64,000 nucleotides of DNA from Rhynchopus sp. YZ270_cl-10 (taxonomy: Eukaryota), in assembly GCA_964035575.1 (NCBI GenBank), contig OZ037845.1, forward strand, positions 1,364,001-1,428,000. The letters run 5' to 3'. The notes below the pieces were generated by a model that saw only the letters and a program-made list of their open reading frames with translations, was not told where the DNA came from and did no database searches. The translations under genes and the position numbers were made by a program. How positions within the stretch are numbered: the stretch's first letter is position 1; every line of letters begins with the position of its first letter. Positions 1,645-55,957 of the stretch are shown piece after piece.

Positions 1645-2125
1645 ACAGGGAAACCCCCTCGGTGCGAAACCAGAACGCGTGGTCTGACCACTAACAACGG
1701 ACTCGGGTTTTTAAAAAAATAGACAGGGCTCTCACAAAATCCCCCACTTTTTTGAGATTTTCAATCTTTGTTGGTATATGTTCATAATGTCTCCCCCCTT
1801 TTTTTTTCTTCATTTTTTTCTTTTTTTTTTTTTTTTTGAGACAACTGCCTTGCAAAAGTTGTAGGGGAGGAAATGAAAACATATTTGAGTGTGCCCAAAT
1901 TTTTGGTGTGAGCGATGTAAACACGACACAACTTATCCACAGAAAAGTTTTTGATTTTGTCCCTACACACTCCACAAAAATCCGGTGCGATCAACGAAAA
2001 ATTCTTTTTCTGATTTCGTTTCTTTCTTTATCAGACTAGCTTAAACTCAGATAACAGTATATATTTTTAGTAAAGTTCAACACGCCTTGCTTGTTCCTCC
2101 TATTCACTGTACTTTTTCATGAGGT

Positions 2126-16058: not shown

Positions 16059-16494
16059 GTGGGGTGTCCCGGGGGTACCACACCAACACCCACCTACACA
16101 CACTTTCACACCATTTCACCCCATTTCACCCCATTACGCCCATTACACATGAATTACAACGCCTTGTTGTTTTGGTCTTTACTAAAGGGATGTGCGGACG
16201 ACACCAAAAAATTGAATTTTTTTGCGAATATTTGCATACAATGCAACGAGCCGACCCCCTTTTATGCACCGAAATCCCTATACGTTACTGTATAAAGACC
16301 CGTGGAGCCACTTTAAATTGACTTCTACTCCACAAAAGTGGTCGATTTTTTTTTTTATGGTGAAAAGCGGGGAGCTCGGAAATTCACTGCCGCTGGTTTT
16401 CAGGGGGGGAAAATTACATGTCACACACCCACCTCACCGAGAGCCAAAACAGAAATACGCTCGCCTTGAAATTTTTTTCTGGATTTTTTTTTTT

Positions 16495-19400
16495 ATTCCT
16501 ACAAGCGTAGCTTAAAGGAGAAATAGTTCCTCAGATACGGTCGCCAATCACCCCTCAAACAGGGTAATTGAGCAATCAACGAAAAATATTTATTACAATC
16601 AACTATGTTCATTATGGAGTTCTGCTTGGATAGCGCGCGACTCGCTTATGATGCGGTCGTAGAAGGTTGGGATCGTTTTGTGTTTGTACGTGCGAGAGGA
16701 TGAAGATACGGCTTTGGTGGGTTTGGACGATGGTGACCTGCGGGAGAGTTTTCGGACAAAAACAGAAGATATGGTCTAAGAAAATAAATTGAGTGAACAC
16801 TGTGCAAGACCTCAAATTATGTGAGGAGATACACGAATGAAAATAAAGACAAACAAAAAAATGATAAACAGTGCAAAGGGCTCACCGCCGGCTGACCACC
16901 ATATCAGCGAAAAGGGAGTCGCACCAGAGAATTATGTGCAACCGTCGGCCTAGGTAGGTAACGGTATGAAAGACCCAAAAAAACGACGGCTTGCCACGCG
17001 GTGAAGTCGTGAAGGGCACAAAGAAATTGGTAGGTAACGGTATGAAAGACCCAAAAAACGACGACTTGCCACGCGGTGAAGTCGTGAAGGGCACAAAGAA
17101 ATTGGCGGCTTACCACGCGGTGAAGTCGGAAAAGTCAACAACCACGGGGGAAAGACGGGAAGACACAACGACAAAAAGACGACTTACCACGCGGTGAAGT
17201 CGGAAAAGGCAACAAAAAGAGAACAAAATAAGGGGAAAACGGGAATATGGGAGAGGTGTCAGACGACGAGTTCAACAAGGATTTCGAGACGCTGCGTTTA
17301 GAGGGCATTCCGTATGTTTTTTGGACAGGGTTTTTAGAGAGTGACATGTGGGACGAGCTGGTGAAGACAGTCGCGCCTAACTGTGGACAATCTTTGGGTG
17401 GTTTCATTTTGAACTGGTGTCGGAACCGGGCACGCGTACGCCAGCTTTGATAATGCCGTGTGTGTAGCCGTCGCTCGCGAGCCGCACAGCTTTGCGCTAA
17501 CTGAGGTCAACAAAAGCAACGAAGGTTTTGTGGAGGAGAAGAAGCCGAACGTCGAAAAGGCAAGCCAACGAAGGAGCGGGACCAACACGATGACAACACG
17601 GTAACACACGAATAGTACAGCAGTACCCATACCGGTGCGGAGAGCACACCATCATGCTGCTGCGTTTCCGAGCACATACTTTAGCGTTTCGTTTTGAAGC
17701 ACATGAGAAGCAGTTAAACCACCATGCACCGTGCGACCTCCGGAAGGCAGCGCCGGAGTTTTGTGTTTGCAGAATTTCAGACCTCGGTTTTGGAAGGAAG
17801 CAAGGCCACGTTAGATGACAGACATGATGATCATTTTCTGCCTGCCGCCGTCGCAGTAAAGTTGCGCAACCGTGATCAGGGTCAACACCAGGCACGAGTT
17901 TCAGCGTCACCGCACCTTCACAAAGACGTAGAGTCGCGCATACTCACCACCCACACGTTGTGCGCGAAGACAGGTGCCTCAGAATAAAGGGGGAGAGACA
18001 TGAAAATAGAAATGATGTACGAATGGGATATATAATAAACGGTGCACAGGGCTGATAAGAAGACCGCGGTGTGCGTTTTGTGGAAGGCTGGTGCAGGGAC
18101 TGGTGTTTTGCAGGCTGTGATACCCTGTCGTGCCTAGGGAGCTTTTTGCAGTTTATACGGACCAAAACAATTATAAGAACGATGCGTAGGGGGATTCAAT
18201 GCAAAGAAAAGGAGGATGGAGTTGAGAAGGGTTGAGAATCAGAGTGTTGCAGTTTAAAGGGAAGGAAACGACACTAGCAAAACATTGAGAGTATACCGGT
18301 TCTGCTGAAGATAACAACAGTTTATGCTAAGGGTAACAACAGTTTATGCTGAAGGTTAATACAGGTTAGGCTGAAGGTAACAACAGTTTATGTTAAAGGT
18401 TAATACAGGTTATGCTGAAGGTAACTACAGGTTATCCTGAAGATAACATCAGTTTATGCTGAAGGTAAATACAGGTTATGCTAAAGATTAGTACAGGTTA
18501 TGCTGAAGATAACAAACAGAATGTACAGGTATGCTGAAGAGGCAGAATGAATACAAAGAAGAAGGGGAAGACCACGTTGTGGAGTCTATGGGATCCAGAC
18601 GGAGGCAGAATAATGTAACGCAGTGAACGAGCAGCTGGAACATGCAGTGGTTTCTTCTTTCGTGGGCAGCAGCGCAGCGTGGGGAGGAGACTGGAAGAGC
18701 TCCGAGACGAGAGGTGGTGGAAGCAACCGGAGAAGAGGGATCGTGGAAGGGCCACATGCATGCTGAAGGAACCCAGAGGAGTTTAACGGCTAAACGGGGA
18801 TTCGAGACCCACCGTGGGTGTGCACAAGAAAAACATGGGTTTGCTGATTCGTCTCTGCTGGTACGCAGCCGCTAGGTAGGAGATGCCCACGATGCCGGAG
18901 GTGATCAGTATGTCTAGGGAAAAATGGGTGGCGATGACGGATGACGAGCGCCTTTTTTGCAATTCCTTCTGGATAAAGAAGACATGCGGAACACGATGAA
19001 GTTGGGCGGTGAGAGGGGCATCAAGATGCGCATAGATACTTATCCTTCCGATGGTTGGGAGCTTGCCCCTGCAGGAGTGCAAACGCGCAACGATGGTTTT
19101 TGCCGGTGCTGACAGTGTACGCGGAGGTTGTGGAGAGATGCAACGTCGTTAATTTGGAGTTGAAATGTGACCCTCTGGTTTGGTACACCCCTGCAGCAGT
19201 TTGATGTTCTTGGCGTTTACACTTCGGCCTATAAACCGGGAGATACCGCATGTCTGAATGGTAGAGAGACATACTGCTCTCCTCCCACCAGCAAGGGTAC
19301 ACTGTCGGAAGATGTACCTGAGGGGGTTTTTGATAGGGTGTGTTGTCCTATGTCGGGTCTGCGTTAGGGAGGAGTTTGGATGAGGACGAATCGTTTGTGG

Positions 19401-20147
19401 GATACGGAGCTGCTTGCTTTCTGGGATCACGAGTGTTGTAGAGTCGGGCTGGAGGTCCCTTAAGAAAAATGTTACGAACCGATTCCATCCCAACTGAGAG
19501 AAGAAAAGTCTGAACGGACGCGAGTTTTTCGAACACGGGGATGCATCGTATGCAGGTGGACAATGCGGATGTGTCGCAGCTATTAACAAAGGTCAGTCCC
19601 AGTGTTTTCTTCCGGTGTGCGTTTTCGGCGTGTGAAGTAATAGGGGATGACAGGCATGGTAGAATGGGTCCCAACAGGAGAGCTGCGGGTCTGACACGAG
19701 GTGAATGGAGCCCCGAGCTGATCGAGAACAGACAAGGCGACGAAGGTCGACCAGGTGCGGGGCAGCATGTCGGCACTCATGTCAGCGCAATGGGCCGCGT
19801 GTAACGAATGTTTTTGGGTTAGTTAAGTGATCTCTGCGTTATTAGGACGCGTCAGTGTATTTGTTCAGTGAATCGTTGGCCCATCTTTAGTTTAAAGTAG
19901 ACCTCTGCTAATCGGAGGGATTTTGTGGTTCAGCTCTATGAGCAGTCCCTAGGGGGTTTGGGTGCAATCAACGAAAAAACCTTTTTTCCTTTTACTTACC
20001 TATCAGAGTTACTATTTTTATTCCTACAAGCGTAGCTTAAAGGAGAAATAGTTCCTCAGATACGGTCGCCAATCACCCCTCAAACAGGGTAATTGAGCAA
20101 TCAACGAAAAAACCTTTTTTCCTTTTACTTACCTATCAGAGTTACTA
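16495..20147 (+). mobile_element. Decayed split-direct-repeat YR retrotransposon (PAT/Ngaro/VIPER/TATE-type architecture)
   Basis: A1 16495-16586; B1 19964-20014; T5; A2 20020-20111; B2 20097-20147; inserted in a T run with no TSD; frameshifted RT/RNaseH remnants inside. Confidence 0.85.
19035..19705 (+). pseudogene. Frameshifted RT-RNaseH remnant homologous to the intact ORF at 51642-53546
   Basis: QVDNA/VAAINKGQS, VEWVPT../GLTRG, FDVLGV and VVERCNVVNLELK match QVDNAAAVAAINKGHS, WVDT..FTRG, FCALGL and FLRRAERVGAELN. Confidence 0.75.
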
Positions 20148-20263
20148 TTTTTTTTGGATCCGGCCGTTTCGAAACGTTCAATTGCGGGGTCGGACGATCA
20201 AAAATATGCATCTCACATTTCTGAGTGCAAAATATGAAAAAGTATACGGAGAACCATGGAATG

Positions 20264-22771
20264 TGGTGCTATCCGGGGGGCGGCGTTTTGCAAAGTTTCA
20301 CAAAATGTCACAAAATTTCAATCCTATGCACAACGTGTCACAACGTTTCACAACGCTTCACAACGCTTCACAACTTTTCACAACTTTTCACAACTATGTA
20401 CACACACCGTTGTGAAAAGTTGTGAAGAGTTGTGAAGAGTTGTGATTTTGATTGAAATTTTGTGAAAAGTTGTGATTTTGATCGAAAATTGTGAAAAGTT
20501 GTGAAAGTTATGAAAAGTTGTGAAAGTTGTGAATAGTTGTGAAAAGTTGTGATTTTGTTTGAAATTTTGCGAAACTTTGTGCAAAGTTGTGATTTGGATT
20601 GAAATTTTGTGAAATTTTGTGAAAGTTGTGAATAGTTGTGAAAAGTTGTGATTTTGATTGAAAATTGTGAAAAGTTGTGAAAGCTGTGAAAAGTTGTGAA
20701 AAGTTGTGATTTTGATTGAAATTTTGCGAAACTTTGTGAAAAGTTGTGATTTTGTTTGAAATTTTGCGAAACTTTGTGCAAAGTTGTGATTTGGATTGAA
20801 ATTTTGTGAAATTTTGTGAAAGTTGTGAATAGTTGTGAAAAGTTGTGATTTTGATTGAAAATTGTGAAAAGTTGTGAAAGCTGTGAAAAGTTGTGAAAAG
20901 TTGTGATTTTGATTGAAATTTTGCGAAACTTTGTGAAAAGTTGTGATTTTGGTTGAAATTTTGTGAAATTTTGTGAAAAGTTGTGAAAAGTTGTGATTTT
21001 AATTGAAATTTGTGAAAAGTTGTGAAATTTGTGAAAAATTGTGAAAAGTTGTGATTTTGATTGAAATGTTGTGAAAAGTTGTGAAAAGTTGTGAAAAGTT
21101 GTGATTTTAATTGAAAATTTTGTGAAAAGTTGTGCTTTTAACCCTTTATGGACCACGACCGATTTTTTCGATTTGCTAGGATCTTCTCTCCCGTAGGTAA
21201 AATGTGATCTGATGCATATTTTTGATCGTACCTGGCCGCAATTGAAAGATTTTGAGCAGATATTTCAAATGGAGCAGAAATCGAAATAAAATGAGAAAAA
21301 TGGAAAATGGAAAATTGAGGAGAGCTGATATTTTTTTCTGAAAATTTTGAAGAAAAAAATTATTCCGGCTGCGCACCTGTTTTTTCGGTTTTCGAAAATG
21401 GCTTTATTTGAAAGATCGGTTCAAAATCTTTCAAAAGAAAAAAAAATCGATCAAAAAGTCCTAGTAGATAATGTCTCACTGCATGGAGAGAAGGTACCAA
21501 CCAACTACATATACCGTAATTGTACAGAGGTTGGACAGTACAAAAGTTGGGGCTTTTGGGACTTTTGGGACTTTTGGCCAACTTGGCATGGTGCTGAACA
21601 AAGGTGAACGCCGCATCCCACGCACATGTAATCTGTTTTCAGACGCCTGTTTCCCAAGCAAGAAGACGACCAACACCCTCCTGCCAGTGTCTCTGTACCT
21701 TGACCGTGTTGATATAGATTTTGTACCCCTCCCTGTGGCTTTCCGTACCCTCCCGCCGAAATTTCGAAGGGACCCTCCGAAAAAAAATTTTTTGGTCGCG
21801 AAAATCGGTCCAAAAACGGTCTAGATTGCCCCATGCGTGGCATTCCGGGCAATTTGAGGGCAATTTGGCGTGCAAGAGCCATGTGTGGGGCACCAGGTGG
21901 TGCACATGTGCCCCCCTTATACAGGGTTTTTACAGGCAAAAAGTGAAAAACGACAGTCGGGCACAAAAAGCCACGGATCGGGGCACAAAGTTACATCCCA
22001 CCCTCCCTTGGCCCTCGGGAGGGAGGGAAATAACCATTCTGTACAATGTTCCTCAAAAGACAAAATGCAATAAATACACGGAGAAGAGGCACATCCAGTT
22101 CAGGGTCAGGAACTGCAACTACGCGTGTTACTTTGCCCAGTCGCGGGTATTTTCCATTATTTTAGTTTCGTTCTGAAGACCGTACAAAATGGTTCCCTGC
22201 ACACCAAAGTTTGAATCCTCTGATGACTCAAGCGCGTCAGAATGGTACATTATTCCCAAAAAATGACCCAAAATACCCTATTATGTGATAATGCCGGGTG
22301 TGGATGAGAGGGGATGAGAGCGTCAAAAAAAATCGAATCTTGCGTCTTTTGAAAGATTTCGCACAAAATCTTCTCATTAAAAAAAAAAATCTTCAAAAAG
22401 TCCTAGTGGAAGCCAATTTAGGTGGTTGCGTGGACATATATGTCCCCTCTGGTCCTTAAAGGGTTAATTGAAATTTTGCGACAAGGTGTGAAAGTTGTGA
22501 AAAGTTGTGAAAGCTGTGAAAAGTTGTGAAAGCTGTGAAAAGTTGTGAAAAGTTGTGATTTTGATTGAAATTTTGTGAAATTTTGTGAAAAGTTGTGAAA
22601 AGTTGTGATTTTAATTGAAATTTTTGTGCAAAGTTGTGCTTATAATTGAAATTTTGTGACAAGGTGTGAAAGTTGTGAAAAGCTGTGAAAGCTGTGCAAA
22701 GTTGTGAAAAGTTGTGATTTTGATTGAAATTTTGTGAAACTTTGCAAAACGCCGCCCCCCGGATAGCACCA
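20264..22771. mobile_element. TGGTGC..GCACCA TIR element, 5-bp TSD GAATG, with an expanded (AAGTTGTGAA)n minisatellite
   Basis: ~40-bp TIR TGGTGCTATCCGGGGGGCGGCGTTTTGCAAAGTTTCACAAAAT; TSD at 20259-20263 and 22772-22776; same family as 9463-9865. Confidence 0.9.
21142..22463. mobile_element. piggyBac-like non-autonomous element nested in the previous element
   Basis: TTAA|CCCTTTATGGACCA ... TGGTCCTTAAAGGG|TTAA. Confidence 0.85.
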
Positions 22772-23367: not shown

Positions 23368-25753
23368 ATGCCTGATAGTGATGTCGATGAATTCAGAGAC
23401 CAGAAAGTGGCAGAACTGGAGGAGGAGATAAAGAAGTTGGAGGAGAGGATCGACAATATCGACAAGAAGTTTTGCGAAGCATACGACCGCGGTACCCATG
23501 GCTTCGAAAAGAACACCTACACTGGCGACATCTACTACACCGGCCAGGAGCAAGAAGTGCAAAGGGCGTTCGCACAACACGACGAGCTCAAGAATAGGCT
23601 CAAGGTATGACGCCAGATTCTTGTTGTTTCTAGTTATGTACATTTATTTTCACACCCTTACAGAGTAAAATGGAGCTGTTGAATGAGGAGAAGAGGCAGC
23701 AGACGTTGGAGATGAAAAGTCGACGTATTGTATGAACACAATCCCCGCTTTTGTTCTTGTCTTGGCACGTTCCTCGTACGATATGCGAAGTTGTGTTTGT
23801 GAGTTGCCCTTTTGATCTCCCGTTCTCGGTTGCATCTCTGTGTAGTTTTAGGCAAAATTGAATGAACATTTCTTCTACTCACAGGTATCCATCGAAGAGG
23901 TCATAGCTCATGAAGACTTCGTAAAAAATCTGTTGACCCCCCGTGACTTTTGCCGGCTCTCATTTTCCAAATTCCAGCACTCAACTGAGGAATGGAAAGA
24001 GGAGTCACTCAAAATCGTGACTGACGCACTTATCTGCCAAAAAGGCAACACTGACAAACAGGACAGGAAGCTGTTTTTCGTTCCATCAGGGATGGGCGGT
24101 GGCAAGTCACGGGTACTGTCGGAACTGCGCACCATAATTGAACCTGAGCTCCGTGACGATGTGGCCCTAATCGAGCTTCGAGTCAACTTCGAAAATGGTA
24201 CATCTATCCTGCCAAGCGAACATTCTTCAAACAATAGATCCGCTGTTGTTGCGAAAGCACTGTTGGACAGGATAATGTACCACTTGATTGGAGGGGGAGG
24301 GGTCGTGCACTTTGAAGACTTCCGCAAGAAGAGGAAATGGGACTTTTGCCTTACTACCCTCTTGGAGGCCATACAAGTGGAGATGCGAGCTAAACTTAAG
24401 AAGAACGCTGTGATAGTGCTTGTGAGTGTTGATGGAGGTCACCATATGGATCAGAAGGGCGCGAGGTACATCGACAAACGTGTTTATGAGGAGAGACAGG
24501 GGTGGTACGATGACAGTGCGCTTCGAGCTATGTTCGGCGAACTTCGAGGCGCGTTGGTGTCGGTTCAGTATGTGATGTGTGCTGTGTCCTCCACAGTGAC
24601 TCTCCCGATATTGCGCACCATTGAAGGCTCACATACCATATACAAGGCTGTGCTACATCCACCAAGACTGACCCAGTTGCCGGAGGAAATCACGAACAAC
24701 ACCGTAGTAGAGCATGGTCCGTACTTTGTGGATCTGTTTGGAGAACATCCTCGTACAATGGAGTTTCTGCTCGAGGTAGAAAAGGAGAGCATATCAGAGA
24801 TTATGGACTACTGTGCTGAGCAGTTGAGGATACGTTACCACGAGTTTGTCGCGACACTGTCCGCGAATGAGTTGAATGACCTCTTGCGTTACTCCCTCTC
24901 TGCCACGTGCACCAAGACATCACCAGTCGGGGAGAAGATTGTAGACGATGTGATGAGCCTTGGTTTGCTGACACTCTCTGATGCAACACTTCGGATTTCC
25001 CCTGTCCTGCTGTATGCACTCTGGAGGGGTTCAGGCGCAGAGTTTCCGATTCTTAAGGATTGGCAGCCCTTCACCAACGACACAGATGCACGAGGGTTCG
25101 AACGGTTCAACGGCTATGTGCAGTGCGTTCGCTCGAAGGTGTTCAGAGGCGAAGTCCCTCTGACGGAGTTTCTCCACGGAGTAAGGTGGTGTTCGACACC
25201 CTCACAAACAGTGACGCCTGTGCCCTTGGAGTTTGTGCAAGCAAAACACCAGCTGCACACAGCCTCTGAATGGAAGGGACGGGTCATCTCTGATGGACTG
25301 TCCAAAAACTCTGCTGCCAACCCAGGAGAGAGCACCTTAGTTGTAGGCAAAAATAAAACCATTTGTCTGCGGGGCCACTGTGTGATGAATGCTGACCAAG
25401 CCTCCGCAGGTGACCTCTTCTTTCCTCTAACCAAGGGGACTGAGACAGTTCATGTAGTCACACAGGCTAAGCACTCCCAAAGTGACGTTGGGGATGTCAC
25501 TCTTTCGAACAGCCAAGCCAACAAGAACGCCAAAATTGCAGCTTCCAAAGGGGATGTCTACCTTCTTGTGACGAAGAAGCGCTTGCAAAATGATGCACTT
25601 ACAGAGCTGTCAAAAGAAGTGAGCTCAGGTGTGTGCGCCGGTGTTGTCGATGCACACAACTTTGCGTCTTACTTCGGTCCTTTTTCCAGCAACTTCCCTC
25701 CAGCCACTAGAAAGCGTAAGAGGGAAGAGGCTCCAGTGCGCAAGGAGGGATGA
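23368..25753 (+). CDS. Crinkler/RHS (CR)-type protein: coiled-coil header + P-loop NTPase + restriction-endonuclease-like domain; predicted exons 23368-23604, 23664-23729, 23885-25753
   Basis: Walker A-like GMGGGKS, Walker B-like VLVSVDG, HPRTME, C-terminal N...A.AGD...QAKH; two phase-0 GTATGA..CAG introns join the upstream ORF in frame. Confidence 0.75.
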
Positions 25754-37510: not shown

Positions 37511-38636
37511 AAGCAAGAAGGATTTTTTTAGTTCTTTTTTTGTGGTAGTTTAGTGTTTACCAATTGAAGTTTCGAACGAAAAAAAATATGGAAAAATTCA
37601 AAAAAAAATAGAATGAAAAGGAAAAAAGGAAAAGGGGAGGGGTGGGTGGGTGGGGTTGTTCTCATTACCCACTTTTTTTTCTTTCATTTTCGTTAGTAAC
37701 CCACCCCCGAATGGGAGAAAAAATGGGTATTACCGAGAATGGCTATTTTGAGGAGTTGGGTATTGAGAAAAAAACACAGTGGAGATTGCACAAACTGTGG
37801 CAACACTACGGAGGCAACTACACTACTCCAACAATTTATCAAAAAAAAAAAAAAATCCCCTACTTTTAAAGGTGGCTAAGCACAAGAAGGCTTAGGGTAT
37901 CTTATCAAATTACATTTTTTTTGTCTTTTGTAGATAGGTTTTTGTCCCCAACCCCTTTGGTGTAAGAGCACAGAGTCTATTCATTTTCTCATACAATATG
38001 AAAACCATTTTTTTTTTAGGTGAGAGGTTTAGGGTGAAATTTTTCATTTTTTTTTCGCAAAGCCCTCACATGACAGTGTACCTTGGTACACTGTCATGAG
38101 AGGGCGCTGTAAGTCAACCCCTTTTTTTTTTAAATTGGTTTTCAGCGGGACAGTTCGTCCTTTGTATGTGTTTATTAGATGACTTTTTCTCTTGGTGGTT
38201 ATAATCCGATTGTATCCCTGAGGGGGGGATTGAGGGACGAATCCTTTTATGATGTGTGTGATTTTCTTTTGTTGTCTTTTGTTCATTTCCATCATGAAAG
38301 TTAATTGGCCTGTCTTCATTTTTTATTTTTTATTTTTTATTTTTTCAAAGTTTTCTTTTCGCGCTTTTCTTTTTGCGTTCACAGATTTCCCTGAACAAGA
38401 CTTACCCGCTATGCTGTACGTGATTTTACTCAACGGTATTCTACGTAAGCAGAGACGTACACAGTTTTTAGTTTTTGCATTCTTCTTCTGATGTGCATTT
38501 TTACTCTTTGTTTTTTTTAGTATTCGTTGGGTACATTCTTGCGCACTGCTTAGTTTGCGCCCTCTTTTCTTTTTTCTTGTGGAAATGACTGTATGCCTGC
38601 TTACAGTTTCCCTGTCAGCAACTCTCACACTCTGGG

Positions 38637-41700: not shown

Positions 41701-42689
41701 TGTCCGCTGATGTACGGTGAGGTGTGATGCATTTTTTTTTTTTTAAAAACTTCTCTTTAGTTATTTAGATGACTAATCACAGAGAGGTTTAGGTTCATTT
41801 TATGAACTTCTCTTTAGTTTCGCCTGCTACACATTTTTGTCGATGACTCAAAATTAAACCCCCCCCCCCTCATTGTTTTAGTTTGGAATTTCCACTCCTT
41901 TTCACCCCCCTTTTAAAAATAGCTGATGCGATTTGCAAGGATTTTTGAAGATTTGAGCTCCCCCCCTTTTGTTGTCTACAACACTAATAAAAAACAGAGC
42001 ACAAAGCATTTTCAAACTACCCCTTTTTTTGTTGTTTTTGTATGACTATGCACAGTGCTGTATTTTCATATATTTCAAGCTTTCCTTTTTTGTTCTTTTT
42101 TGTTCTTTTTTGTTCTCTTTTTTTTTACAACAAAACATAATCCAGACGTGTGTACCCCTTTTTCTTTTTTTCTGTGCTGTATTTCATTGGTCCCCCCCTC
42201 CCCCAGCGAAGTCCACAGATTATGGGAGCTGGCATATATACCTCCAGCCGGTTCCCTCTCCCGAACACTCTAGGCATACACTCGATGCGAGTCGCATGCG
42301 AGAATCATTATCGCACTATCGTACACCATTCTTGCACCATTATCGCATGCGATAATCATTATCGCTCACGTAGAAGGATTTTTGGTCGTGCGAGAGTGAG
42401 CGATAATTGTGCGATAATTTTTCGCCAGACCAGAATTGTGCGAGGATGCGAGAATGCGACTCTCATCGGGGTGTATGTCTAGGGGAGGGTTCGATAACCC
42501 CACGGAGTGTCAGTGCTCTGCGTCCCAGAGGCGTTTTGCACTGTCAACTTTACTCTACTTTTTTTTTTGTGTGAAAAATCGTCTTATGTCTAGATGTATG
42601 TGGGGAAGAAAAAAAAACTTTCCCACACACAGCACCATGATACTCTTTACCTTTCCCCATATCCATCCCCCCGATTCCCCCCCCCCCTA

Positions 42690-43886
42690 GGGCCAGCGAC
42701 TCCGCCGTTTTAACGTGGGAGCCAATGTCGCTTTAACCTGTTACGGTACTTCTGGCCATTTCCAGGCCACCTCTGGTCGGAAAACCCCCCAGAACTGGGT
42801 CAGAAACACCCTGTGACCCGAAAATTCATGATTAGGGCGACCCAGAATATGCTAAAATGCGAAAAAATAGTGAAAAAGTGGCTTTTTGACGGTTTTGGCC
42901 ATGTTGGGTAAAATGGCCATTTTTTGAGAAAAAAACCAAAAAAACAGCAAAATTTCGACATCATGACGGCTGCTTGGGCACAAAACTACCCCAGGGATGT
43001 CCCGTGAGTCCATTCCGACCTGTTTTGGACACTTTCGGTACTTTTTTTGGCCGTTTTTTGGTGTTTTTGTGGTAAAAAACGTCCTATGATAGTCCTATAC
43101 TAATCGCAAGACGCCATTTGTCCCACAGTCTGGGCCAATATGGGGGCCCACAAATGGGTAAAAACCCCCGAAAAAGCACTCCAGGAACCCAGATAGTTCC
43201 AAATATCCACCAGACACCCACCCAAACACCGCAGAAACACCACAGAAAATCGTCTTGAAAAACACACTTTTTTCAAAAAGGTCATTATGGAGCCTGTCTG
43301 ACAACCTTTTTGAAAAAAGTGTGTTTTTTAAGACAACTTTCTGTGGTGTTTCTGCGGTGTTTGGGTGGGTGTCTGGTGGATATTTGGAACTATCTGGGTT
43401 CCTGGAGTGCTTTTTCGGGGGTTTTTACCCATTTGTGGGCCCCCATATTGGCCCAGACTGTGGGACAAATGGCGTCTTGCGATTAGTATAGGACTATCAT
43501 AGGACGTTTTTTACCACAAAAACACCAAAAAACGGCCAAAAAAAGTACCGAAAGTGTCCAAAACAGGTCGGAATGGACTCACGGGACATCCCTGGGGTAG
43601 TTTTGTGCCCAAGCAGCCGTCATGATGTCGAAATTTTGCTGTTTTTTTGGTTTTTTTCTCAAAAAATGGCCATTTTACCCAACATGGCCAAAACCGTCAA
43701 AAAGCCACTTTTTCACTATTTTTTCGCATTTTAGCATATTCTGGGTCGCCCTAATCATGAATTTTCGGGTCACAGGGTGTTTCTGACCCAGTTCTGGGGG
43801 GTTTTCCGACCAGAGGTGGCTTGGAAATGGCCAGAAATGCCGTAACAGGTTAAAGCGACACAATTTTACTAGGGAGTCGCTCCCCC
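42690..43886. mobile_element. TA-flanked foldback element (~570-bp internal inverted arms); inverted copy at 47675-48871
   Basis: Self-complementary around ~43290; termini GGGCCAGCGACTCC / GGAGTCGCTCCCCC. Confidence 0.85.
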
Positions 43887-44087
43887 TACCCCCCCCCTAG
43901 GCATACATAGCGTGCGAACGGCTCATTCGCATCATTCGCATCCTGTTCGCATTGGGTATTCGCATCCTGTTCGCATTGGCCAATGCGAACAGGATGCGAA
44001 TGACATACGAATAACATTTATTATGGGGTGGCGACAGGCAAGTTCTCATTTTTTGGTCAATTTCCGCACTACACAGTACACACAATA

Positions 44088-47661: not shown

Positions 47662-50470
47662 TAGGGGGGGGGTAGGGGGAGCGACTCCCTAGTAAAATTG
47701 TGTCGCTTTAACCTGTTACGGCATTTCTGGCCATTTCCAAGCCACCTCTGGTCGGAAAACCCCCCAGAACTGGGTCAGAAACACCCTGTGACCCGAAAAT
47801 TCATGATTAGGGCGACCCAGAATATGCTAAAATGCGAAAAAATAGTGAAAAAGTGGCTTTTTGACGGTTTTGGCCATGTTGGGTAAAATGGCCATTTTTT
47901 GAGAAAAAAACCAAAAAAACAGCAAAATTTCGACATCATGACGGCTGCTTGGGCACAAAACTACCCCAGGGATGTCCCGTGAGTCCATTCCGACCTGTTT
48001 TGGACACTTTCGGTACTTTTTTTGGCCGTTTTTTGGTGTTTTTGTGGTAAAAAACGTCCTATGATAGTCCTATACTAATCGCAAGACGCCATTTGTCCCA
48101 CAGTCTGGGCCAATATGGGGGCCCACAAATGGGTAAAAACCCCCGAAAAAGCACTCCAGGAACCCAGATAGTTCCAAATATCCACCAGACACCCACCCAA
48201 ACACCGCAGAAACACCACAGAAAGTTGTCTTAAAAAACACACTTTTTTCAAAAAGGTTGTCAGACAGGCTCCATAATGACCTTTTTGAAAAAAGTGTGTT
48301 TTTCAAGACGATTTTCTGTGGTGTTTCTGCGGTGTTTGGGTGGGTGTCTGGTGGATATTTGGAACTATCTGGGTTCCTGGAGTGCTTTTTCGGGGGTTTT
48401 TACCCATTTGTGGGCCCCCATATTGGCCCAGACTGTGGGACAAATGGCGTCTTGCGATTAGTATAGGACTATCATAGGACGTTTTTTACCACAAAAACAC
48501 CAAAAAACGGCCAAAAAAAGTACCGAAAGTGTCCAAAACAGGTCGGAATGGACTCACGGGACATCCCTGGGGTAGTTTTGTGCCCAAGCAGCCGTCATGA
48601 TGTCGAAATTTTGCTGTTTTTTTGGTTTTTTTCTCAAAAAATGGCCATTTTACCCAACATGGCCAAAACCGTCAAAAAGCCACTTTTTCACTATTTTTTC
48701 GCATTTTAGCATATTCTGGGTCGCCCTAATCATGAATTTTCGGGTCACAGGGTGTTTCTGACCCAGTTCTGGGGGGTTTTCCGACCAGAGGTGGCCTGGA
48801 AATGGCCAGAAGTACCGTAACAGGTTAAAGCGACATTGGCTCCCACGTTAAAACGGCGGAGTCGCTGGCCCTAGGGGGGGGGGGAATCGGGGGGATGGAT
48901 ATGGGGAAAGGTAAAGAGTATCATGGTGCTGTGTGTGGGAAAGTTTTTTTTTCTTCCCCACATACATCTAGACATAAGACGATTTTTCACACAAAAAAAA
49001 AAGTAGAGTAAAGTTGACAGTGCAAAACGCCTCTGGGACGCAGAGCACTGACACTCCGTGGGGTTATCGAACCCTCCCCTAGACATACACCCCGATGAGA
49101 GTCGCATTCTCGCATCCTCGCACAATTCTGGTCTGGCGAAAAATTATCGCACAATTATCGCTCACTCTCGCACGACCAAAAATCCTTCTACGTGAGCGAT
49201 AATGATTATCGCATGCGATAATGGTGCAAGAATGGTGTACGATAGTGCGATAATGATTCTCGCATGCGACTCGCATCGAGTGTATGCCTAGAGTGTTCGG
49301 GAGAGGGAACCGGCTGGAGGTATATATGCCAGCTCCCATAATCTGTGGACTTCGCTGGGGGAGGGGGGGACCAATGAAATACAGCACAGAAAAAAAGAAA
49401 AAGGGGTACACACGTCTGGATTATGTTTTGTTGTAAAAAAAAAGAGAACAAAAAAGAACAAAACTAAACATAACATTATACCAACTGATCTGTCTTTACT
49501 ACTCTACTACTATGTCTTTTTTCGTTGACCGCAGCCATTTAGGCTCTTTGCCTATGACGCACATGATAATGGATGAGGGGGAGGATTCAAAAGGAAAAAG
49601 CGTAAAGACAGATCTATCGTTGGTTTTAAATATGTTTAGTTTCCAATCACACTTCGTGTGTGCAAAAACTAAACATAACATTATACCAACTGATCTGTCT
49701 TTACTACTCTACTACTATGTCTTTTTTCGTTGACCGCAGCATGACCCAAAGGGACCGCGCAGCGGAATAGTAGCATAGTACGGAGTTAAACGGGGAAGAA
49801 AAAAGGGGGGAAACGGTAGGAAAAGAAAGAAAAACGGTAAACACAGCACCGAGCAAGCCAGCACTCACAGAAAGAAATCGTGTTGATATCCATTCGCCGT
49901 CTCGAAGACAGTGGATAAGGGGGGGCCGTAAGCGCAAGGAGTGCCAAGCATAGTCAGCACACCCCATACAGGGGGACACATTTCAAACAAAAATAAAAGC
50001 GCATGGTGCACGAAGCAGAGTCAGTACCATCAAACGGGAGAGCAAAAAATATGAAAACGGTGTCAGTGATAAGCAGGGACTACAAAAACCAGCACGGGCG
50101 GACCCACCACCGAAACGACAATCTGGACCCACCACCGAAACGACAATCTTCCGCGAGAGTCGCCTCTCCAAACTACTGGGCAGCGGACGTTCGTGAAGCA
50201 GGGAGGCGTGGTACTAAAACATGTCCTCAACCGCGTATAGCGGGGCTCGTGGCCATCAGAACAACCCGCCCTTGGCAGGAAAATACCATGTACACAACGC
50301 AAGAAAACAGAACGCGCACGCACAATACGAGGACAAGCTCCTCAAAGAAAAACCAGTCGTCCCGCGACAGGCCCACACAGACCACCATTGAACCCTAGGT
50401 GATGAAAAAATAAAACAAACACTAAACACTCCTACGACGCACTGTGAGCGGGAAGGCAAACAATAAAATG

Positions 50471-51625
50471 CATGGGGCACTAAGCATAGTCAGCACGCAC
50501 CAGCGATGAAATGTTGATGAACAAGAAACACCCCTTCGTCGCTCCTCGAGCAGGAAGGTAAAATAAAATGCATGGGGCACCAAGCAGAGTCAGCACGCAC
50601 CAGCGATAAAGTGTTGATGAACATTGACACCCCTTCAGGGGAAAAAGTAAAAAGCACAAGGGGCACCAAGCAGAGTCAGCACGCTCCAAGCGAGAAAATG
50701 ATAACAATAACAAAACCCTTCGTCGCTCCGTGAGCGGGAAGGTAAAATAAAATGCATGGGGCACCAAGCAGAGTCAGCACGCACCAGCGATAAAGTGTTG
50801 ATGAACAATAAATACCCCTTCAGGGGAAAAGGTAAAAAGTACATGGGGCACTAAGCAGAGTCAGTACGCACCAGCGATAAAAGGTTGATGAACAATAAAC
50901 ACCCCTTCGTCGCTCCACGAGCAGGAAGGTAAAATAAAATGCATGGGGCACCAAGCAGAGTCAGCACGCACCAGCGATAAAGTGTTGATGAACAATAAAT
51001 ACCCCTTCAGGGGAAAAGGTAAAAAGTACATGGGGCACTAAGCAGAGTCAGTACGCACCAGCGATAAAATGTTGATGAACAATAAACACCCCTTCGTCGC
51101 TCCACGAGCAGGAAGGCAAAATAAAATACATGGGGCACCAAGCAGAGTCAGCACGCACCAGCGATAAAGTGTTGATGAACAATAAATACCCCTTCAGGGG
51201 AAAAGGTAAAAAGTACATGGGGCACTAAGCAGAGTCAGTACGCACCAGCGATAAAAGGTTGATGAACAATAAACACCCCTTCGTCGCTCCACGAGCAGGA
51301 AGGTAAAATAAAATGCATGGGGCACCAAGCAGAGTCAGCACGCACCAGCGATAAAGTGTAGATGAACATTGACACCCCTTCAGGGGAAAAAGTAAAAAGC
51401 ACAAGGGGCACCAAGCAGAGTCAGCACGCTCCAAGCGAGAAAATGATAACAATAACAAAACCCTTCGTCGCTCCGTGAGCGGGAAGGTAAAATAAAATGC
51501 ATGGGGCACCAAGCAGAGTCAGCACGCACCAGCGATAAAATGTTGATGAACAATAAACATCCCTTCGTCGCCCCATGGGCAAAATATAAAAACTCATGGG
51601 GCACTGAGCAAAGCCAGCACGCGCC
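50471..51625 (-). repeat. Array of 13 units of 86-100 bp (alternating ~100/87 dimer) in the 3' region of the retroelement
   Basis: Unit starts 50471, 50571, 50657, 50755, 50842, 50942, 51029, 51129, 51216, 51316, 51402, 51500, 51595. Confidence 0.92.
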
Positions 51626-51641
51626 ATAACAAACAAAACAA

Positions 51642-53546
51642 TTATTGACAAAACATTGCCTCCACACTCTCGTATACTTTGAGCACAGGGGGGAGTGACA
51701 CCATCGTGGGGGCCACCGTCCCGCGAGTGAACTCGTCAGCACGTTGACTTAAAGTGTCCACCCACGTGGCGGATACACACATGTTTGCTGCCTTTGCAGT
51801 GTCAAAAATCGCACACAGCAGCTCGTTAGCTAGATAATTCTTGCTGTGACCTTTGTTTATAGCTGCCACTGCAGCGGCGTTGTCGACCTGAAGAGACACT
51901 TCATGATTAGGGTGGTTTGCGGCCGCTAACCGAACGGCTAGCCAAGCAGCGTATAGCTCTTTCAGGTATATGTGATGTTTCTCAGGATCTGGAAACACAC
52001 CCTGAACAACAGGTTCGAAAAACTCAGATTCTATTAAAGCAGCCCACTCGCGGTCCGAGGCATCTGACCAAGTCACCACGGTGGGTCTCTCTGGTTGGTC
52101 TACAATCCAGTCATTACAACGCATCACAGACACTATGCCTGTGAATTCTGAGATAACAGATGGGGGGATAAAAAGTTGAACATCCCACTTTTGTGGGTCA
52201 ATAGCAAGTAAAGACGCGGTACGCCGCAGAAAAGAAAGAGAATCACGGTAATAACACAAATTCCGTTTGGTACAATACAAAAACCACACGAAACCTCCCA
52301 ATACTTTGTAGAAATCCCGGGCAGTGCAGTCGTCTTTCAACACCGCACTGAGAACGGGGGATTCCACACACTTCTCAATCCAGTCAGGGGCAGCACGGTA
52401 CCGTCTTGGGGAACTCGCCAAGTCAAACTCCAGGCCCAAAGCGCAAAAGTTCGTCCTAGGCACTCCCTCTCCCTCGTCGTCATTCAGCTCGGCACCGACA
52501 CGTTCAGCGCGTCGGAGGAACGAAGAGTAGCGCCTCTCTGCCTCCTGCAAGGTATTGCCCACGACAAAGAAGTTGTCCACCCAAGGTATCCCTTCATCCT
52601 CTGGCAGCAACACCATAGCCGAGCGGTGCGCGATGCACGGCGCCCAACTCCACCCCATGCACAGCACGTTGAGCTTTGCCCTCACAAAGGGTCCGCGTGC
52701 ACCTGCCAGGTTCACTCCAAAGAAATCGTCCACACCATCTGCCAGCGGAAACTGGTAAAACCAGCTCCGCCCATCAGCTTGCACCACGTACGCACTGTCC
52801 AGAAACCTCTTCACTACCTTATGTATGGAAGGTAGATACATGGGAGGGGGGTCACGCATCAGGCGGTTCAGCTTCCGACCGTCGCAGACCAGCCTCAGTC
52901 CCCGCACCTTCTTCGGCACGGTGAAGGCGGGAAGTATCACCTTCTGCTCGCCAGACCGAGACATCACACCCCACTTCTGCAGCTTCCCCCAGTGGCGCAG
53001 CATATGCCTGGAAGTCCCTCTCTTTACCGGGACTGACGACTCCAGGACTTTTCGGCCCTCCTCGGTGAGGGCTGCCGTGAAGGCTTCGGGGGACCGGATC
53101 ACGTCGAGGACTCCTGTCAGAAGACCTTGAGAGTCCATCGCCGTTAGGGCATCCAGGTCCAACCTAGCACGGGAGATCTCCGCCAGCTCCCCCTCAGCGC
53201 GTTCGGCGGGAGCAGACACAAAGCGGCGATCCAAAACAATCGTTGCCTCCCCGTACAGGAGCACAACATCAGGCCCATCGTCCTCCTCCGTCCTCCTCGG
53301 GAGCGCGGGCGGTGGTGGAGGCGCGTACATCTTCGGCGGCGCTCCGAATGTCGGGAAAGCAGGACGCAATGGTGGTGCACGCGCTCTTCTCCAGCGTCGT
53401 ACCCACACACAGGGCCTCAAGCCACACTGCAGCGGAGGGTGCGTCAGCGAGGGCCCAACTGCTCCTGCGACGCACTGCACGACGGCAACCCGTGCTCCTC
53501 CTCGTCCCCTGCCACCCCGCGCACGAGTCCTACTCCTCCGTGCCAT
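51642..53546 (-). CDS. DIRS-class reverse transcriptase-RNase H, 634 aa, with Arg/Gly-rich N-terminus
   Basis: FTVPKK..LRLVCD, DGRSWFYQ, LCMGWSWAP, WVDN, ALGLEFD; RNaseH SDAS, HIYLKELYA, VDN..AV..INKG.S, WV......ADEFTR. Confidence 0.92.
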   Translation of the reverse strand: MARRSRTRARGGRGRGGARVAVVQCVAGAVGPSLTHPPLQCGLRPCVWVRRWRRARAPPLRPAFPTFGAPPKMYAPPPPPALPRRTEEDDGPDVVLLYGEATIVLDRRFVSAPAERAEGELAEISRARLDLDALTAMDSQGLLTGVLDVIRSPEAFTAALTEEGRKVLESSVPVKRGTSRHMLRHWGKLQKWGVMSRSGEQKVILPAFTVPKKVRGLRLVCDGRKLNRLMRDPPPMYLPSIHKVVKRFLDSAYVVQADGRSWFYQFPLADGVDDFFGVNLAGARGPFVRAKLNVLCMGWSWAPCIAHRSAMVLLPEDEGIPWVDNFFVVGNTLQEAERRYSSFLRRAERVGAELNDDEGEGVPRTNFCALGLEFDLASSPRRYRAAPDWIEKCVESPVLSAVLKDDCTARDFYKVLGGFVWFLYCTKRNLCYYRDSLSFLRRTASLLAIDPQKWDVQLFIPPSVISEFTGIVSVMRCNDWIVDQPERPTVVTWSDASDREWAALIESEFFEPVVQGVFPDPEKHHIYLKELYAAWLAVRLAAANHPNHEVSLQVDNAAAVAAINKGHSKNYLANELLCAIFDTAKAANMCVSATWVDTLSQRADEFTRGTVAPTMVSLPPVLKVYESVEAMFCQ

Positions 53547-55957
53547 ATTTATTCGGTAACGAAGTTAAAAAATTTTTCGTTGACCGCAGCCATTTAGGCT
53601 CTTTGCCTATGACGCACATGATAATGGATGAGGGGGAGGATTCAAAAGGAAAAAGCGTAAAGACAGATCTATCGTTGGTTTTAAATATGTTTAGTTTCCA
53701 ATCACACTTCGTGTGTGCAAAAAAAGAACAAAAAAGGAAAGCTTGAAATATATGAAAATACAGCACTGTGCATAGTCATACAAAAACAACAAAAAAAGGG
53801 GTAGTTTGAAAATGCTTTGTGCTCTGTTTTTTATTAGTGTTGTAGACAACAAAAGGGGGGGAGCTCAAATCTTCAAAAATCCTTGCAAATCGCATCAGCT
53901 ATTTTTAAAAGGGGGGTGAAAAGGAGTGGAAATTCCAAACTAAAACAATGAGGGGGGGGGGTTTAATTTTGAGTCATCGGCAAATTGTTCGTTTGAGAGA
54001 TTGTTACCGTGTTTTAACAAATAGTGGAGCACGCTCTAGGGTGGCTACACTAATACAACCAAGTTTTCAATTAAAAAAAATAGTTTAAAAAAATGGTGGG
54101 TCAGTTGCTTATGACGCAAGTGAAAATAGTGGAGTTAGCAATACGTGTTGCCAACTGTTTTCCATCAATTTTTTTTCAAAAAAAGCTAAAAAAAAAAGTG
54201 TAGGGTGTTTGCGGTATAGCTACAAAATATGGGGGGGAACCAAATCGATTGTTTCTTCCCCCAACTCTCCTTGTCTGTGTATCTGTCGATGCATTGCGGG
54301 ACCGCTCCCTCTTCCATTTAAAAAAGAGCCCAAGGGGTTGAAACACGGTACCATAAAGATCTTAAGGAAGATATTTGTGTTTTTTCAGGATTCCTGGAAA
54401 TCCTGACACTTTGTGTTTTTTTTCTTCAGGATTTTTCAAGATCCTGACAATTTGTGTTTTTTTTTTTTTTTACCAGGGGCAGGGTTTCCGCCAGGATTTG
54501 GGGTTTCAGGAATTGGGGGGGACCATCAAAAAGACCCCCCAAAAAAATTTTTCCTCCCCGCAAAAGCGGTCGTCGCGCGCTTCGCGCGCGCCTCCCTGCA
54601 GGCCACAGAGTGGAGAGGCGAAGGGTGCACCAGGTTTGATAGCAGCCATGTCAAGCTTCACAGCTGTGTTGTCTGGTAGAGGTGGTTCGTTTGGAGGTCG
54701 GGGGTGGAAGTTAACAAGGTAAGGGGTCTTGTGAGAGTGGAGGGTGATGGTGTTTGCTTTTTCTATTGTATGGTGTTACAGTCATTACAGTGCTGCAGTG
54801 GGAACATGTAATAACTACCCGTCGCTTGCACCGAAGCCTCCTTAGAAAAAGGGGCAATGCACGGAAGTATCGATGGAAGTATATCAATATCACATAGCTA
54901 GCAACACAGCGCCGCAGGCGCACGGTACGCTACTTTTACCCTTTTTAAAAAAGATTGCACCACCCTCTTTTCTTCCACTTCTTCTGGCACAGCGAGCCAA
55001 ATGCTCTGCACGGTGGGGTCGCATGACCACGGGGGGTCATCTACAACCTCCAAAACCCCATTTTTCTTGGGGGGGACCATGGTCCCCCCCAAACCCCTGT
55101 AAAAATCCGGATTTTTCTGGGAAAAATATTGGGGGGGTCCATGGTCCCCCCCCGGTCCCCCTTGGCGGAAACCCTGAGGGGGCTTCTCTATGTTGTAGGC
55201 ATACAGAGGTACAGATTTTACAGACCGGGGCCGCAACTGGCTGGGATGTCACGAAACTGACAAAAAAAGTGGTTTTCGACCTTTTTTTTTGGCCTGCTGT
55301 ACAGTATAGTCAGGGTAGTAGCTTGAAAGGTGTACTTTTCAAATGTTGCTGGTTTAGAAAAAATTTTTCCCCGGTTGAAAGCGGTCGTCGCGCGCTTCGC
55401 GCGCGACTCCCTGACAACCACTAAGTGGAGAGGCAAAGGGTAAATTTTACGAGACAACAAAGAAAATGGAATATAATCCTGTGTTTACGGCGCTTGGTCT
55501 TGCACCTTCCACTAACCGTACGAAGTCAATACGTCTTCCAGAAGCAGGGGCCGTTGCAACGGTGGGTCATTTTGAAAAAATGGTCAACTTTTTGCATCTT
55601 TGATCAAGTTGCATTTGCGGCTGCAAAATGCAAGGGGATTCCCGAAGACATTGCAAACTCTATTTTTTGCGGAGCAAAAAATTAATATAAAGTGGCGCCG
55701 CAGGCGAAAAAAAAATTAGGGCATAGTGCAAAACATGCAGCTTTTTACACCACAGAGTCACTTAATGAACCCTTTTTAGGGGTTCGCTTACGTGTGAGGC
55801 TTTCTTCTGTGAGTGGGAAAGTGGTGCGGGGGAGGCGAAAAACTGAATCCCGAATCCCACTTTTTTTTTTATTTTTCCCCAAACCAGTAAACCAGCTCGT
55901 TCTGGTTTTGAAACCAGCAAAAGTACCCAAGCTATTTCCCTGGTATAGTATAGTACC

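What the first reader, a model, noticed from the sequence alone, without database searches (positions are those of the whole stretch)
16495..20147. Second, divergent split-repeat element sharing the TCAACGAAAAA core, T5 junction and T-run targeting
The A and B sequences are otherwise unlike those of the 49-53 kb element. Both elements have A and B overlapping at GC(AA/GG)TCAACGAAAAA, a T5 B/A junction, insertion in a T tract and an ATG ~26-27 nt after A1. This defines conserved cis signals, possibly for priming or strand transfer. Terminal repeats are identical while the RT is riddled with small deletions, so it probably moved after losing coding capacity, which implies trans-mobilisation.
Basis: partly seen in the sequence, partly recalled or inferred. 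Interest (0 to 1): 0.7.

Follow-up and report, generated by a model that had tools for sequence, protein, structure and literature searches.

The report
Dead split-repeat retrotransposon, still being copied
This is a jumping gene of a known but rare kind whose own genes are wrecked while its end repeats are perfect; it is likely still copied by enzymes from intact relatives, and a short motif that its ends share with an otherwise unrelated neighbour likely marks where the copying enzyme switches template.

Summary
The geometry is real. A1 (16490-16586) equals A2 at 97/97 bases and B1 equals B2 at 56/56, in the order A1...B1-A2-B2, with a 15-nt A/B overlap. TCAACGAAAAA is the only clear sequence shared with the ends of the 49-53 kb element.

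A profile of related proteins finds a frameshifted RT (18880-19347, catalytic motif deleted) and an RNase H remnant. Intact relatives, many from Diplonema papillatum, read ORF1-tyrosine recombinase-RT/RNase H. That is the VIPER/TATE layout, so this is a known class of element.

Public runs suggest about 4-6 near-identical copies carrying the same lesions, many solo A-B units, and varied T-run flanks. Families with an intact recombinase appear to share the assembly. Trans-mobilisation is therefore likely but not shown; segmental duplication is not excluded.

The added value is in the ends. An A/B overlap core sits before ORF1 and after RNase H in 10 of 27 distant relatives (often CAAGCAA), whereas a published VIPER copy has a spacer there. 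The exact 11-mer and the T5 junction are not general, and the 'ATG at +26/27' claim is weak.

The parts
16484..16494 (+). Left T11 tract (host target T run merged with the element's T5)
   Evidence: loose ends of 22 (X1) and 29 (X3) contigs begin here, consensus ending in a T run
16490..16586 (+). Repeat A1 (T5 plus 92 nt), identical to A2
   Evidence: 97/97
16572..16586 (+). Core copy 1 (A/B overlap GCAATCAACGAAAAA)
16605..16703 (+). 32-codon ORF after A1; possible start of a decayed ORF1, no homology found
16953..17105 (+). Internal 75-bp tandem duplication
18293..18515 (+). Internal 22-bp minisatellite
18563..18876 (+). Possible tyrosine-recombinase remnant (N-terminal piece and a LxWxxAAR-like box directly before the RT); inconclusive
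   Evidence: 68 vs shuffle maximum 53 with P0012 (one of 24 query-region pairs); 44.8 vs maximum 46.7; 3 to 6 of 100 shuffles reach the score in a window chosen afterwards
18880..19347 (+). Reverse-transcriptase remnant: frameshifts, stops, catalytic motif deleted
19547..19720 (+). RNase H remnant (VDN motif to the C-terminal motif)
19947..19954 (+). CCCTAGGG box just before B1; similar boxes in E2 and in 4 of 9 relatives
   Evidence: pattern defined after seeing the sequences
19964..20019 (+). Repeat B1, starting with core copy 2 (19964-19978) and ending in T5
20015..20111 (+). T5 B1/A2 junction (20015-20019) and repeat A2, ending in core copy 3 (20097-20111)
20097..20155 (+). Repeat B2 (20097-20152) and right T8 tract (20148-20155)
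49460..53723 (-). Comparison element E2: A1 53573-53723, intact 634-codon RT/RNase H ORF 51642-53546, 187-bp tandem array, B1 49665-49740, A2 49518-49668, B2 49460-49535; no recombinase found
42088..42101 (.). Empty target site of E2 (T6), inside an inverted duplicate of E2's two flanks

Best explanation
The 3.66-kb element is a split-direct-repeat (A1...B1-A2-B2) retroelement with a ruined RT/RNase H and perfect ends, descended from a VIPER/TATE-like tyrosine-recombinase retrotransposon of a likely diplonemid host, and it is likely still copied by proteins supplied by intact families in the same genome.

Steps, with their status:
(1) Shown: the repeat layout and the RT/RNase H remnants at the 3' end; intact relatives read ORF1-recombinase-RT/RNase H.
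(2) Roughly shown, from contig depth: about 4-6 near-identical copies share the lesions, and solo A-B units are far more common.
(3) Inferred: an RNA running from core copy 1 to core copy 3 is reverse-transcribed by a helper RT. Because the core lies at the end of A1, the start of B1 and the A2/B2 joint, it gives the short homology for two template switches. One rebuilds A1 from A2 and the other rebuilds B2 from B1, so the ends are reset to identity each round however decayed the interior is.
(4) Inferred, with arithmetic support from E2: the joined B/A end (T5) recombines with a host T run through a helper recombinase, without target duplication.
(5) Speculative: the CCC-n-GGG box before B1 serves second-strand priming, and a splice acceptor just before the core (clear in relatives, weak in E1) sets the RNA or mRNA 5' end by trans-splicing.

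Odds: class assignment about 0.9; spread by trans-mobilisation about 0.65; core as template-switch site about 0.45.
For: - Repeat layout and identity.
- RT and RNase H scores.
- Named relatives are all D. papillatum proteins. P0012 and P0030 have PF00589 upstream of PF00078. Atlas look-alikes are commonest in Euglenozoa (phylum known for 3 members per cluster).
- E2 integration arithmetic: empty site T6 + junction T5 = T7 + T4 at the two ends, with nothing else gained.
- Host genes in runs X1 and X3 are covered by long contigs with 0 differences: depth 91-155 in 4 of the 5 listed long X1 pieces (one at 259) and 98 in X3. Long contigs on the E1 interior have depth 580-784 (X1) and 440-627 (X3), with 0-1 gaps. 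In X2 the interior is assembled at depth 5-7 while the host genes are mostly uncovered.
- A/B positions have summed depth about 120,000-330,000 in X1 and X3. A2-B2 matches with unrelated sequence on both sides occur in X2 and X8. 22 and 29 contigs have other left flanks ending in T. One X1 contig joins the two flanks across a T-rich gap.
- 7 of 9 RT proteins tested carry a full recombinase in the +1 frame (scores 228-265 vs shuffle maxima of 47 or less). The two E2-type proteins do not.
- An overlap core of 10-16 nt lies both before ORF1 and 30-140 nt after RNase H in 10 of 27 testable metagenome loci.
Against: - No contig links the interior to a flank, so the flanks of the 4-6 copies are unknown.
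- E1 sits in a high-copy host repeat (flank depth 15,000-60,000), so duplication together with the flanks is possible.
- Contig depth is not a copy number, and summed depth over repeats is inflated.
- The recombinase remnant in E1 is not significant, and no ORF1 homology was found.
- No close parent was found: the best pairwise scores are 107-112, with proteins of other sources; same-assembly families score 90 or less.
- The cores of the candidate helpers are unknown.
- 17 of 27 testable relatives gave no convincing exact core, and 9-12-nt chance repeats occur in the same lists.
- A published VIPER copy has a spacer of about 30 nt instead of an overlap (read by eye), so an overlap is not needed by all split-repeat elements.
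- A spliced leader at the RNA 5' end would complicate a simple end-to-end jump.
Confidence: 0.65

Rival explanations
1. An old dead insertion was multiplied passively by duplication of the host repeat it sits in, and its end repeats were kept identical by gene conversion or by chance.
For: The flanks are high-copy host repeats. The window holds recent 99-100% duplications of 0.25-1.8 kb. No contig ties interior copies to different flanks.
Against: Both repeat pairs (153 nt in all) are perfect beside an RT with about one frameshift per 50 nt and a deleted active site. The ends are precise T-run junctions. An empty form of the flank repeat exists. Active-looking families appear to share the assembly.
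Confidence: 0.22
2. The element does move in trans, but the core is a protein-binding or RNA-processing signal (ORF1 or recombinase site, 5' UTR, splice or polyadenylation context) rather than the homology for template switching.
For: In relatives the core directly follows a pyrimidine tract plus AG and precedes ORF1 by a few A-rich bases (17 of 25 families match a loose acceptor pattern, vs 15% background). Its sequence is conserved across families whose repeats are otherwise unrelated, which pure homology would not require.
Against: Within each element the copy at the B1 start matches the copy at the A end letter for letter, including family-specific letters. This is what repeated copying through that point would produce.
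Confidence: 0.3
3. The frameshifts are assembly errors and the element is an intact RT-coding copy.
For: Many 1-2-nt indels are typical of unpolished long reads (general knowledge).
Against: Independent contigs from three runs match the interior with 0-2 gaps per long piece. Neighbouring genes and the E2 RT are open over 470-880 codons.
Confidence: 0.02

Closest known systems
VIPER and TATE ('VIPER-like' tyrosine-recombinase retrotransposons of kinetoplastids; PMC6681497, PMC12278014)
   Same: A1...B1-A2-B2 repeats; gene order gag-like, recombinase, RT/RNase H (in intact relatives); no target duplication. One C. fasciculata VIPER copy starts with T7, has T5 at the B1/A2 joint and a pyrimidine tract plus AG in A (supplementary file 1, read by eye). 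Repeat sizes are like a Bodo saltans copy (A 83, B 57 bp).
   Different: Host is likely a diplonemid. A and B overlap by 15-18 nt, whereas that VIPER copy and T. cruzi SIRE have a spacer of about 30 nt. RT/RNase H is about 560-630 aa, against about 950 aa. E1 is a multi-copy, full-length, non-coding family. Clade membership was not tested.
SIRE of Trypanosoma cruzi; solo AB repeats of Cafeteria Ngaro elements (PMC6681497, PMC8547959)
   Same: Isolated A-B units of the parent element; E1's A-B unit appears to be far more abundant than its interior.
   Different: E1 itself keeps a 3.4-kb decayed interior and the full four-repeat layout. That SIRE inserts in pyrimidine tracts and supplies a trans-splice acceptor is recalled, not read here.
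TOC1 of Chlamydomonas reinhardtii (non-autonomous version of TOC3; PMC5613634, PMC9940879)
   Same: A non-autonomous element of the DIRS order that moves with a partner's enzymes.
   Different: Green alga, PAT group (recalled); relatives carry a methyltransferase, which Pfam did not find in 9 of 9 relatives scanned here.
Ngaro elements (PMC8547959, PMC3783388)
   Same: Identical repeat layout; internally deleted copies persist (Cafeteria type 2b).
   Different: Ngaro order is gag, RT/RNase H, recombinase. Here the recombinase lies upstream of the RT.

Membership tests
VIPER-like (VIPER/TATE) | Split direct repeats A1...B1-A2-B2 | tested here: met
VIPER-like (VIPER/TATE) | RT/RNase H as last coding unit before B1 | tested here: met
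   Remnant 18880-19720, B1 at 19964
VIPER-like (VIPER/TATE) | Tyrosine recombinase upstream of the RT | tested here: inconclusive
   Met in relatives. In E1 only a weak trace in the expected place. Absent from E2.
VIPER-like (VIPER/TATE) | gag-like ORF1 | tested here: inconclusive
   No similarity to ORF1 regions of P0012, P0030, P0029, P0032 on the expected strand beyond noise; longest stop-free frame on the + strand inside E1 is 96 codons
VIPER-like (VIPER/TATE) | No target-site duplication | tested here: met
   E2: empty T6 + junction T5 = T7 + T4. E1: flanks joined across a T-rich gap in one X1 contig, probably a paralogous site.
VIPER-like (VIPER/TATE) | RT groups with VIPER/TATE in a tree | not tested
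   No named VIPER or TATE protein came back; the quick tree holds none. Filed as 'VIPER-like in layout', not as VIPER or TATE.
Ngaro | Recombinase downstream of RT/RNase H | tested here: not met
   Upstream in relatives; only about 240 nt between RNase H and B1 in E1
PAT/DIRS | Methyltransferase domain (and, for DIRS, inverted repeats with an internal complementary region) | tested here: not met
   No such Pfam hit in 9 of 9 relatives; the repeats are direct
LTR retrotransposon / TRIM | Two whole LTRs, 4-6-bp target duplication, DDE integrase | tested here: not met

The most novel reading that the evidence does not exclude
A large, undescribed branch of VIPER-like elements uses a 10-18-nt A/B overlap as the terminal redundancy of its RNA. 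Trans-splicing at an acceptor just before the core would set the 5' end, both template switches would occur at the core, and the CCC-n-GGG box would prime the second strand. In this genome one shared core would let a four-tier community ride the same enzymes into T tracts: complete families, RT-only families, fully dead full-length families like E1, and hundreds of solo A-B units.
Probability: 0.3. Interest if true: 0.75.

Novelty: new variant of a known kind. Interest (0 to 1): 0.5.

Why it matters
How split-repeat retrotransposons rebuild their ends has not, to my knowledge, been tested. The experimental work I read concerns DIRS-1, which has a different layout (PMC7192593, passages).

A short core at exactly the three places where A ends or B begins gives a concrete, mutable target. 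It is kept between two families whose repeats are otherwise unrelated, and in altered form in distant relatives. A dead family that still spreads shows which cis signals are enough.

The result also extends VIPER-like elements to a likely diplonemid. The D. papillatum genome paper mentions only TATE-like ORFs and defers rigorous element annotation (PMC10161547, passages). The element class, non-autonomous copies and solo A-B units are already known, which caps the surprise.

Tried and rejected
Searches that gave nothing
- No whole genome is held, so the genome-wide core search was replaced by public runs and protein clusters.
- An exact 23-nt pattern of E1's core region found 0 matches in the metagenome contigs.
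- Rfam on 16300-20300 gave one chance-level hit, E 0.95.
- No RNA holder was listed. X8 is only guessed to be RNA and holds small pieces.
- Earlier scan notes for this genome and sequence: none.

Tests that were marginal or negative
- tblastn and tblastx of the 634-aa RT against E1 were not significant, and the single-sequence frameshift alignment was marginal.
- The recombinase remnant in E1 is inconclusive with two profiles.
- A score of 68 for P0029 on the opposite strand looked like a low-complexity match and was dropped. It equals the score of the P0012 hit, which is one more reason to treat that hit as weak.
- Folding: the box regions before B1 are not unusually stable (z 0.44 and -0.67); A1 has z -2.2. 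No structure is claimed.
- The seventh core at 1991 matches E1 only over the core and adjacent T run; the flanking parts align no better than shuffles.
- The 70-bp element is not detectably related to E1's A-B unit (199 of 500 shuffles score as well).

Readings rejected or limited
- 13 of 33 metagenome contigs have terminal overlaps. This was rejected as evidence of free circles, because split repeats or tandem arrays make such loops in assembly graphs.
- The careful tree did not finish; only the quick tree was used.
- The depth of E2 in the runs was not measured.

Literature
- Searches for an A/B overlap or strand-transfer model and for diplonemid elements found no such description.
- Goodwin and Poulter 2004, Poulter and Butler 2015 and Lorenzi 2006 were not read. 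Vazquez 2000 and Day 1988 are not held. The overlap or the T-tract preference may be described in these.
Full report
1. Observation. E1 runs from the T run at 16484-16494 to the T run at 20148-20155. A1 (16490-16586) equals A2 (20015-20111) at 97 of 97 bases, and B1 (19964-20019) equals B2 (20097-20152) at 56 of 56. A and B overlap by 15 nt. E2 (49460-53723, minus strand) has the same layout with an 18-nt overlap. TCAACGAAAAA occurs 7 times in the window against 0.14 expected: three times in each element and once at 1991. Outside it, the repeats of E1 and E2 are unrelated. Both B1/A2 joints are T5. The first ATG after E1's A1 is at +18 and opens 32 codons, so the shared +26/27 spacing is not a sound feature.

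2. Coding remnants. The 634-aa RT of E2 alone barely detects E1. A profile of 26 relatives gave 169 against a maximum of 46 in 20 shuffles. A profile without the window's protein and its sister gave 138.6 at 18880-19347, against at most 54.1 in 28 background tiles; the RNase H piece gave 60.6, reached by 0 of 100 shuffles. The RT has 9 frameshifts and 2 stops in about 470 nt, and lacks about 19-20 codons that include the catalytic WVDN motif. Of 64 proteins scored, the best were P0013, P0016, P0030 and P0015 (107-112); the E2 family scored 59. So E1 is not a decayed E2. A further set from later searches gave nothing above 108. A recombinase trace at 18563-18876 lies in the expected place but is not significant. 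The lesions are real: contigs of three public runs match the interior with 0-2 gaps per long piece.

3. What the parent was. All named relatives of the RT are Diplonema papillatum proteins. P0012 and P0030 carry a phage-integrase-family domain upstream of the RT. In 7 of 9 further RT proteins tested, the N-terminal extension is a full recombinase read in the +1 frame; the two E2-type proteins have none. The 33 metagenome loci mostly show ORF1, recombinase, RT/RNase H in that order. This order, with A1...B1-A2-B2 repeats and no target duplication, is how VIPER and TATE are described (PMC6681497, passages and section 13; PMC12278014, passages). Ngaro has the recombinase last (PMC8547959, section 11). 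No VIPER or TATE protein could be placed in my quick tree, so membership of either clade is untested. The family is large: 1,398 representatives at E up to 1e-30 (this count will include other RT groups).

4. Integration. E2's two flanks are duplicated, inverted and joined, at 41851-43901. The empty site has T6; the filled site has T7 and T4; the junction has T5. Six plus five equals seven plus four, as expected if a B/A-joined intermediate crosses over inside the T run and nothing is duplicated. Homopolymers do slip, so this is support rather than proof. A similar junction-to-target rule is reported for DIRS trinucleotides (PMC7192593, passages). For E1, one X1 contig joins the two flanks across a T-rich gap, and 22 (X1) and 29 (X3) contigs carry other left flanks, with a consensus ending in T. 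T targeting is not general in the wider family: L012, the one complete split-repeat relative, has no T5 junction. It is not unique either: a C. fasciculata VIPER copy begins with T7 and has T5 at its B1/A2 joint (supplementary file 1 of PMC6681497, parts 1-2 of 6, read by eye).

5. Did it spread after decay? In X1 and X3, host genes are covered by long contigs with 0 differences: depth 91-155 in 4 of 5 listed long X1 pieces (one at 259) and 98 in X3. Long contigs on E1's interior have depth 580-784 and 440-627, and differ from the window copy by 0-1.3%. That suggests about 4-6 copies sharing the lesions; contig depth is only a rough guide. Positions in A and B have summed depth in the hundreds of thousands, and A2-B2 matches with unrelated sequence on both sides occur in X2 and X8, so solo A-B units seem abundant. 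Against this: E1 lies in a high-copy host repeat, and no contig ties the interior to a flank. Passive duplication remains possible.

6. The core beyond the window. Of 33 loci, 27 could be tested. In 10 of them (9 families, picked by eye from the two best repeats per locus), an exact repeat of 10-16 nt lies both within 19 nt before a long ORF1 and 30-140 nt after the RNase H end. With ORF1 chosen without using the motif, CAA[GC][GC]AA lay within 30 nt of its ATG in 9 of 25 families, against 61 of 3,891 other ATGs; all 9 read CAAGCAA, not CAACGAA. After the RNase H end it lay in 9 of 26 loci. A pyrimidine run plus AG before CG or CC preceded ORF1 in 17 of 25 families, against 15% background. A CCC-n-GGG box preceded B1 in E1, E2 and 4 of 9 relatives, against 0.03 per 40 nt. 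These patterns were defined after viewing the loci, and the CAAGCAA loci that are in the tree fall in one clade, so they are not independent. In E1 an AG touches the core but has no pyrimidine tract; in E2 a tract plus AG lies 16 nt upstream. In the C. fasciculata copy and in SIRE, A2 and B2 are separated by about 30 nt. The overlap is therefore the feature that sets this branch apart.

7. Mechanism. Most likely, an RNA from core 1 to core 3 is copied by a helper RT. A switch at the core rebuilds A1 from A2, another rebuilds B2 from B1, the ends join at T5, and a helper recombinase inserts the product into a T run. This accounts for the three-copy core, perfect ends on a ruined interior, and the T arithmetic. 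The switches, the RNA ends and the priming are inferred, not shown. The main rivals are passive duplication and a core that acts as a binding or processing signal.

8. Precedent and papers seen. Non-autonomous members of the order are known: TOC1 (PMC5613634 and PMC9940879, passages), SIRE (PMC6681497, passages), and solo AB and ORF1-less Ngaro copies (PMC8547959, section 11). Also seen as passages: PMC10161547, PMC3783388, PMC4157794, PMC3418195, PMC12747079. Ten literature searches found no description of an A/B overlap core or of complete diplonemid elements. The key older papers and reviews were not available, and unread supplements (TATE copies, T. cruzi VIPER ends) could bear on this.

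9. Verdict. A real feature and a new variant of a known kind. Its value lies in the testable cis signals; interest 0.5.

Noticed in passing
window 60439-60520 and 37768-37850: An element of about 70 bp between A runs (T runs on the minus strand), with two copies 89% alike in the window. Summed depth is above one million in X1 and X3, with many different flanks. It may be a solo unit of another T-tract-targeting family or a SINE-like element; no detectable likeness to E1's ends.
   Followed up: partly
window 49460-53723: E2 is an RT-only element: its intact RT/RNase H ORF starts 26 nt after A1, with no ORF1 or recombinase. Its protein cluster has 7 variants on 24 contig records, and a sister family at 85% identity has the same short N-terminus. 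RT retention without the other genes may deserve its own study.
   Followed up: partly
window 1987-2070: A seventh core copy, followed by a pyrimidine tract, TATCAGA and a T run, loosely like E1's B repeat; only the core part is significant. Possibly a solo unit of a third family.
   Followed up: partly
window 16590-18547: X1 and X3 each hold a contig at about single-copy depth that skips 16590-18035 and 18063-18547, perhaps an internally deleted E1 variant; sides are only 29 letters.
   Followed up: no
window 41851-43901 and 47660-49473: An inverted duplication of 1.8 kb at 100% identity, each copy holding a 557-bp near-perfect foldback. Long 9-bp and 5-bp arrays lie between the copies.
   Followed up: no
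window 21505-21882 (minus strand): A 125-codon ORF ending in a cysteine-rich motif that recalls the C-terminus of piggyBac transposases (recalled). Pfam gave only a weak zf-HIT hit. It lies between 10-bp minisatellite blocks.
   Followed up: no
L001-L033: 13 of 33 related contigs of 3.6-4.7 kb have terminal overlaps, and L007 holds tandem diverged units. This may reflect split repeats, tandem arrays or true circles.
   Followed up: partly
window 24092-25753 and 34-1644: Two long ORFs (553 and 536 aa) with no Pfam match.
   Followed up: no
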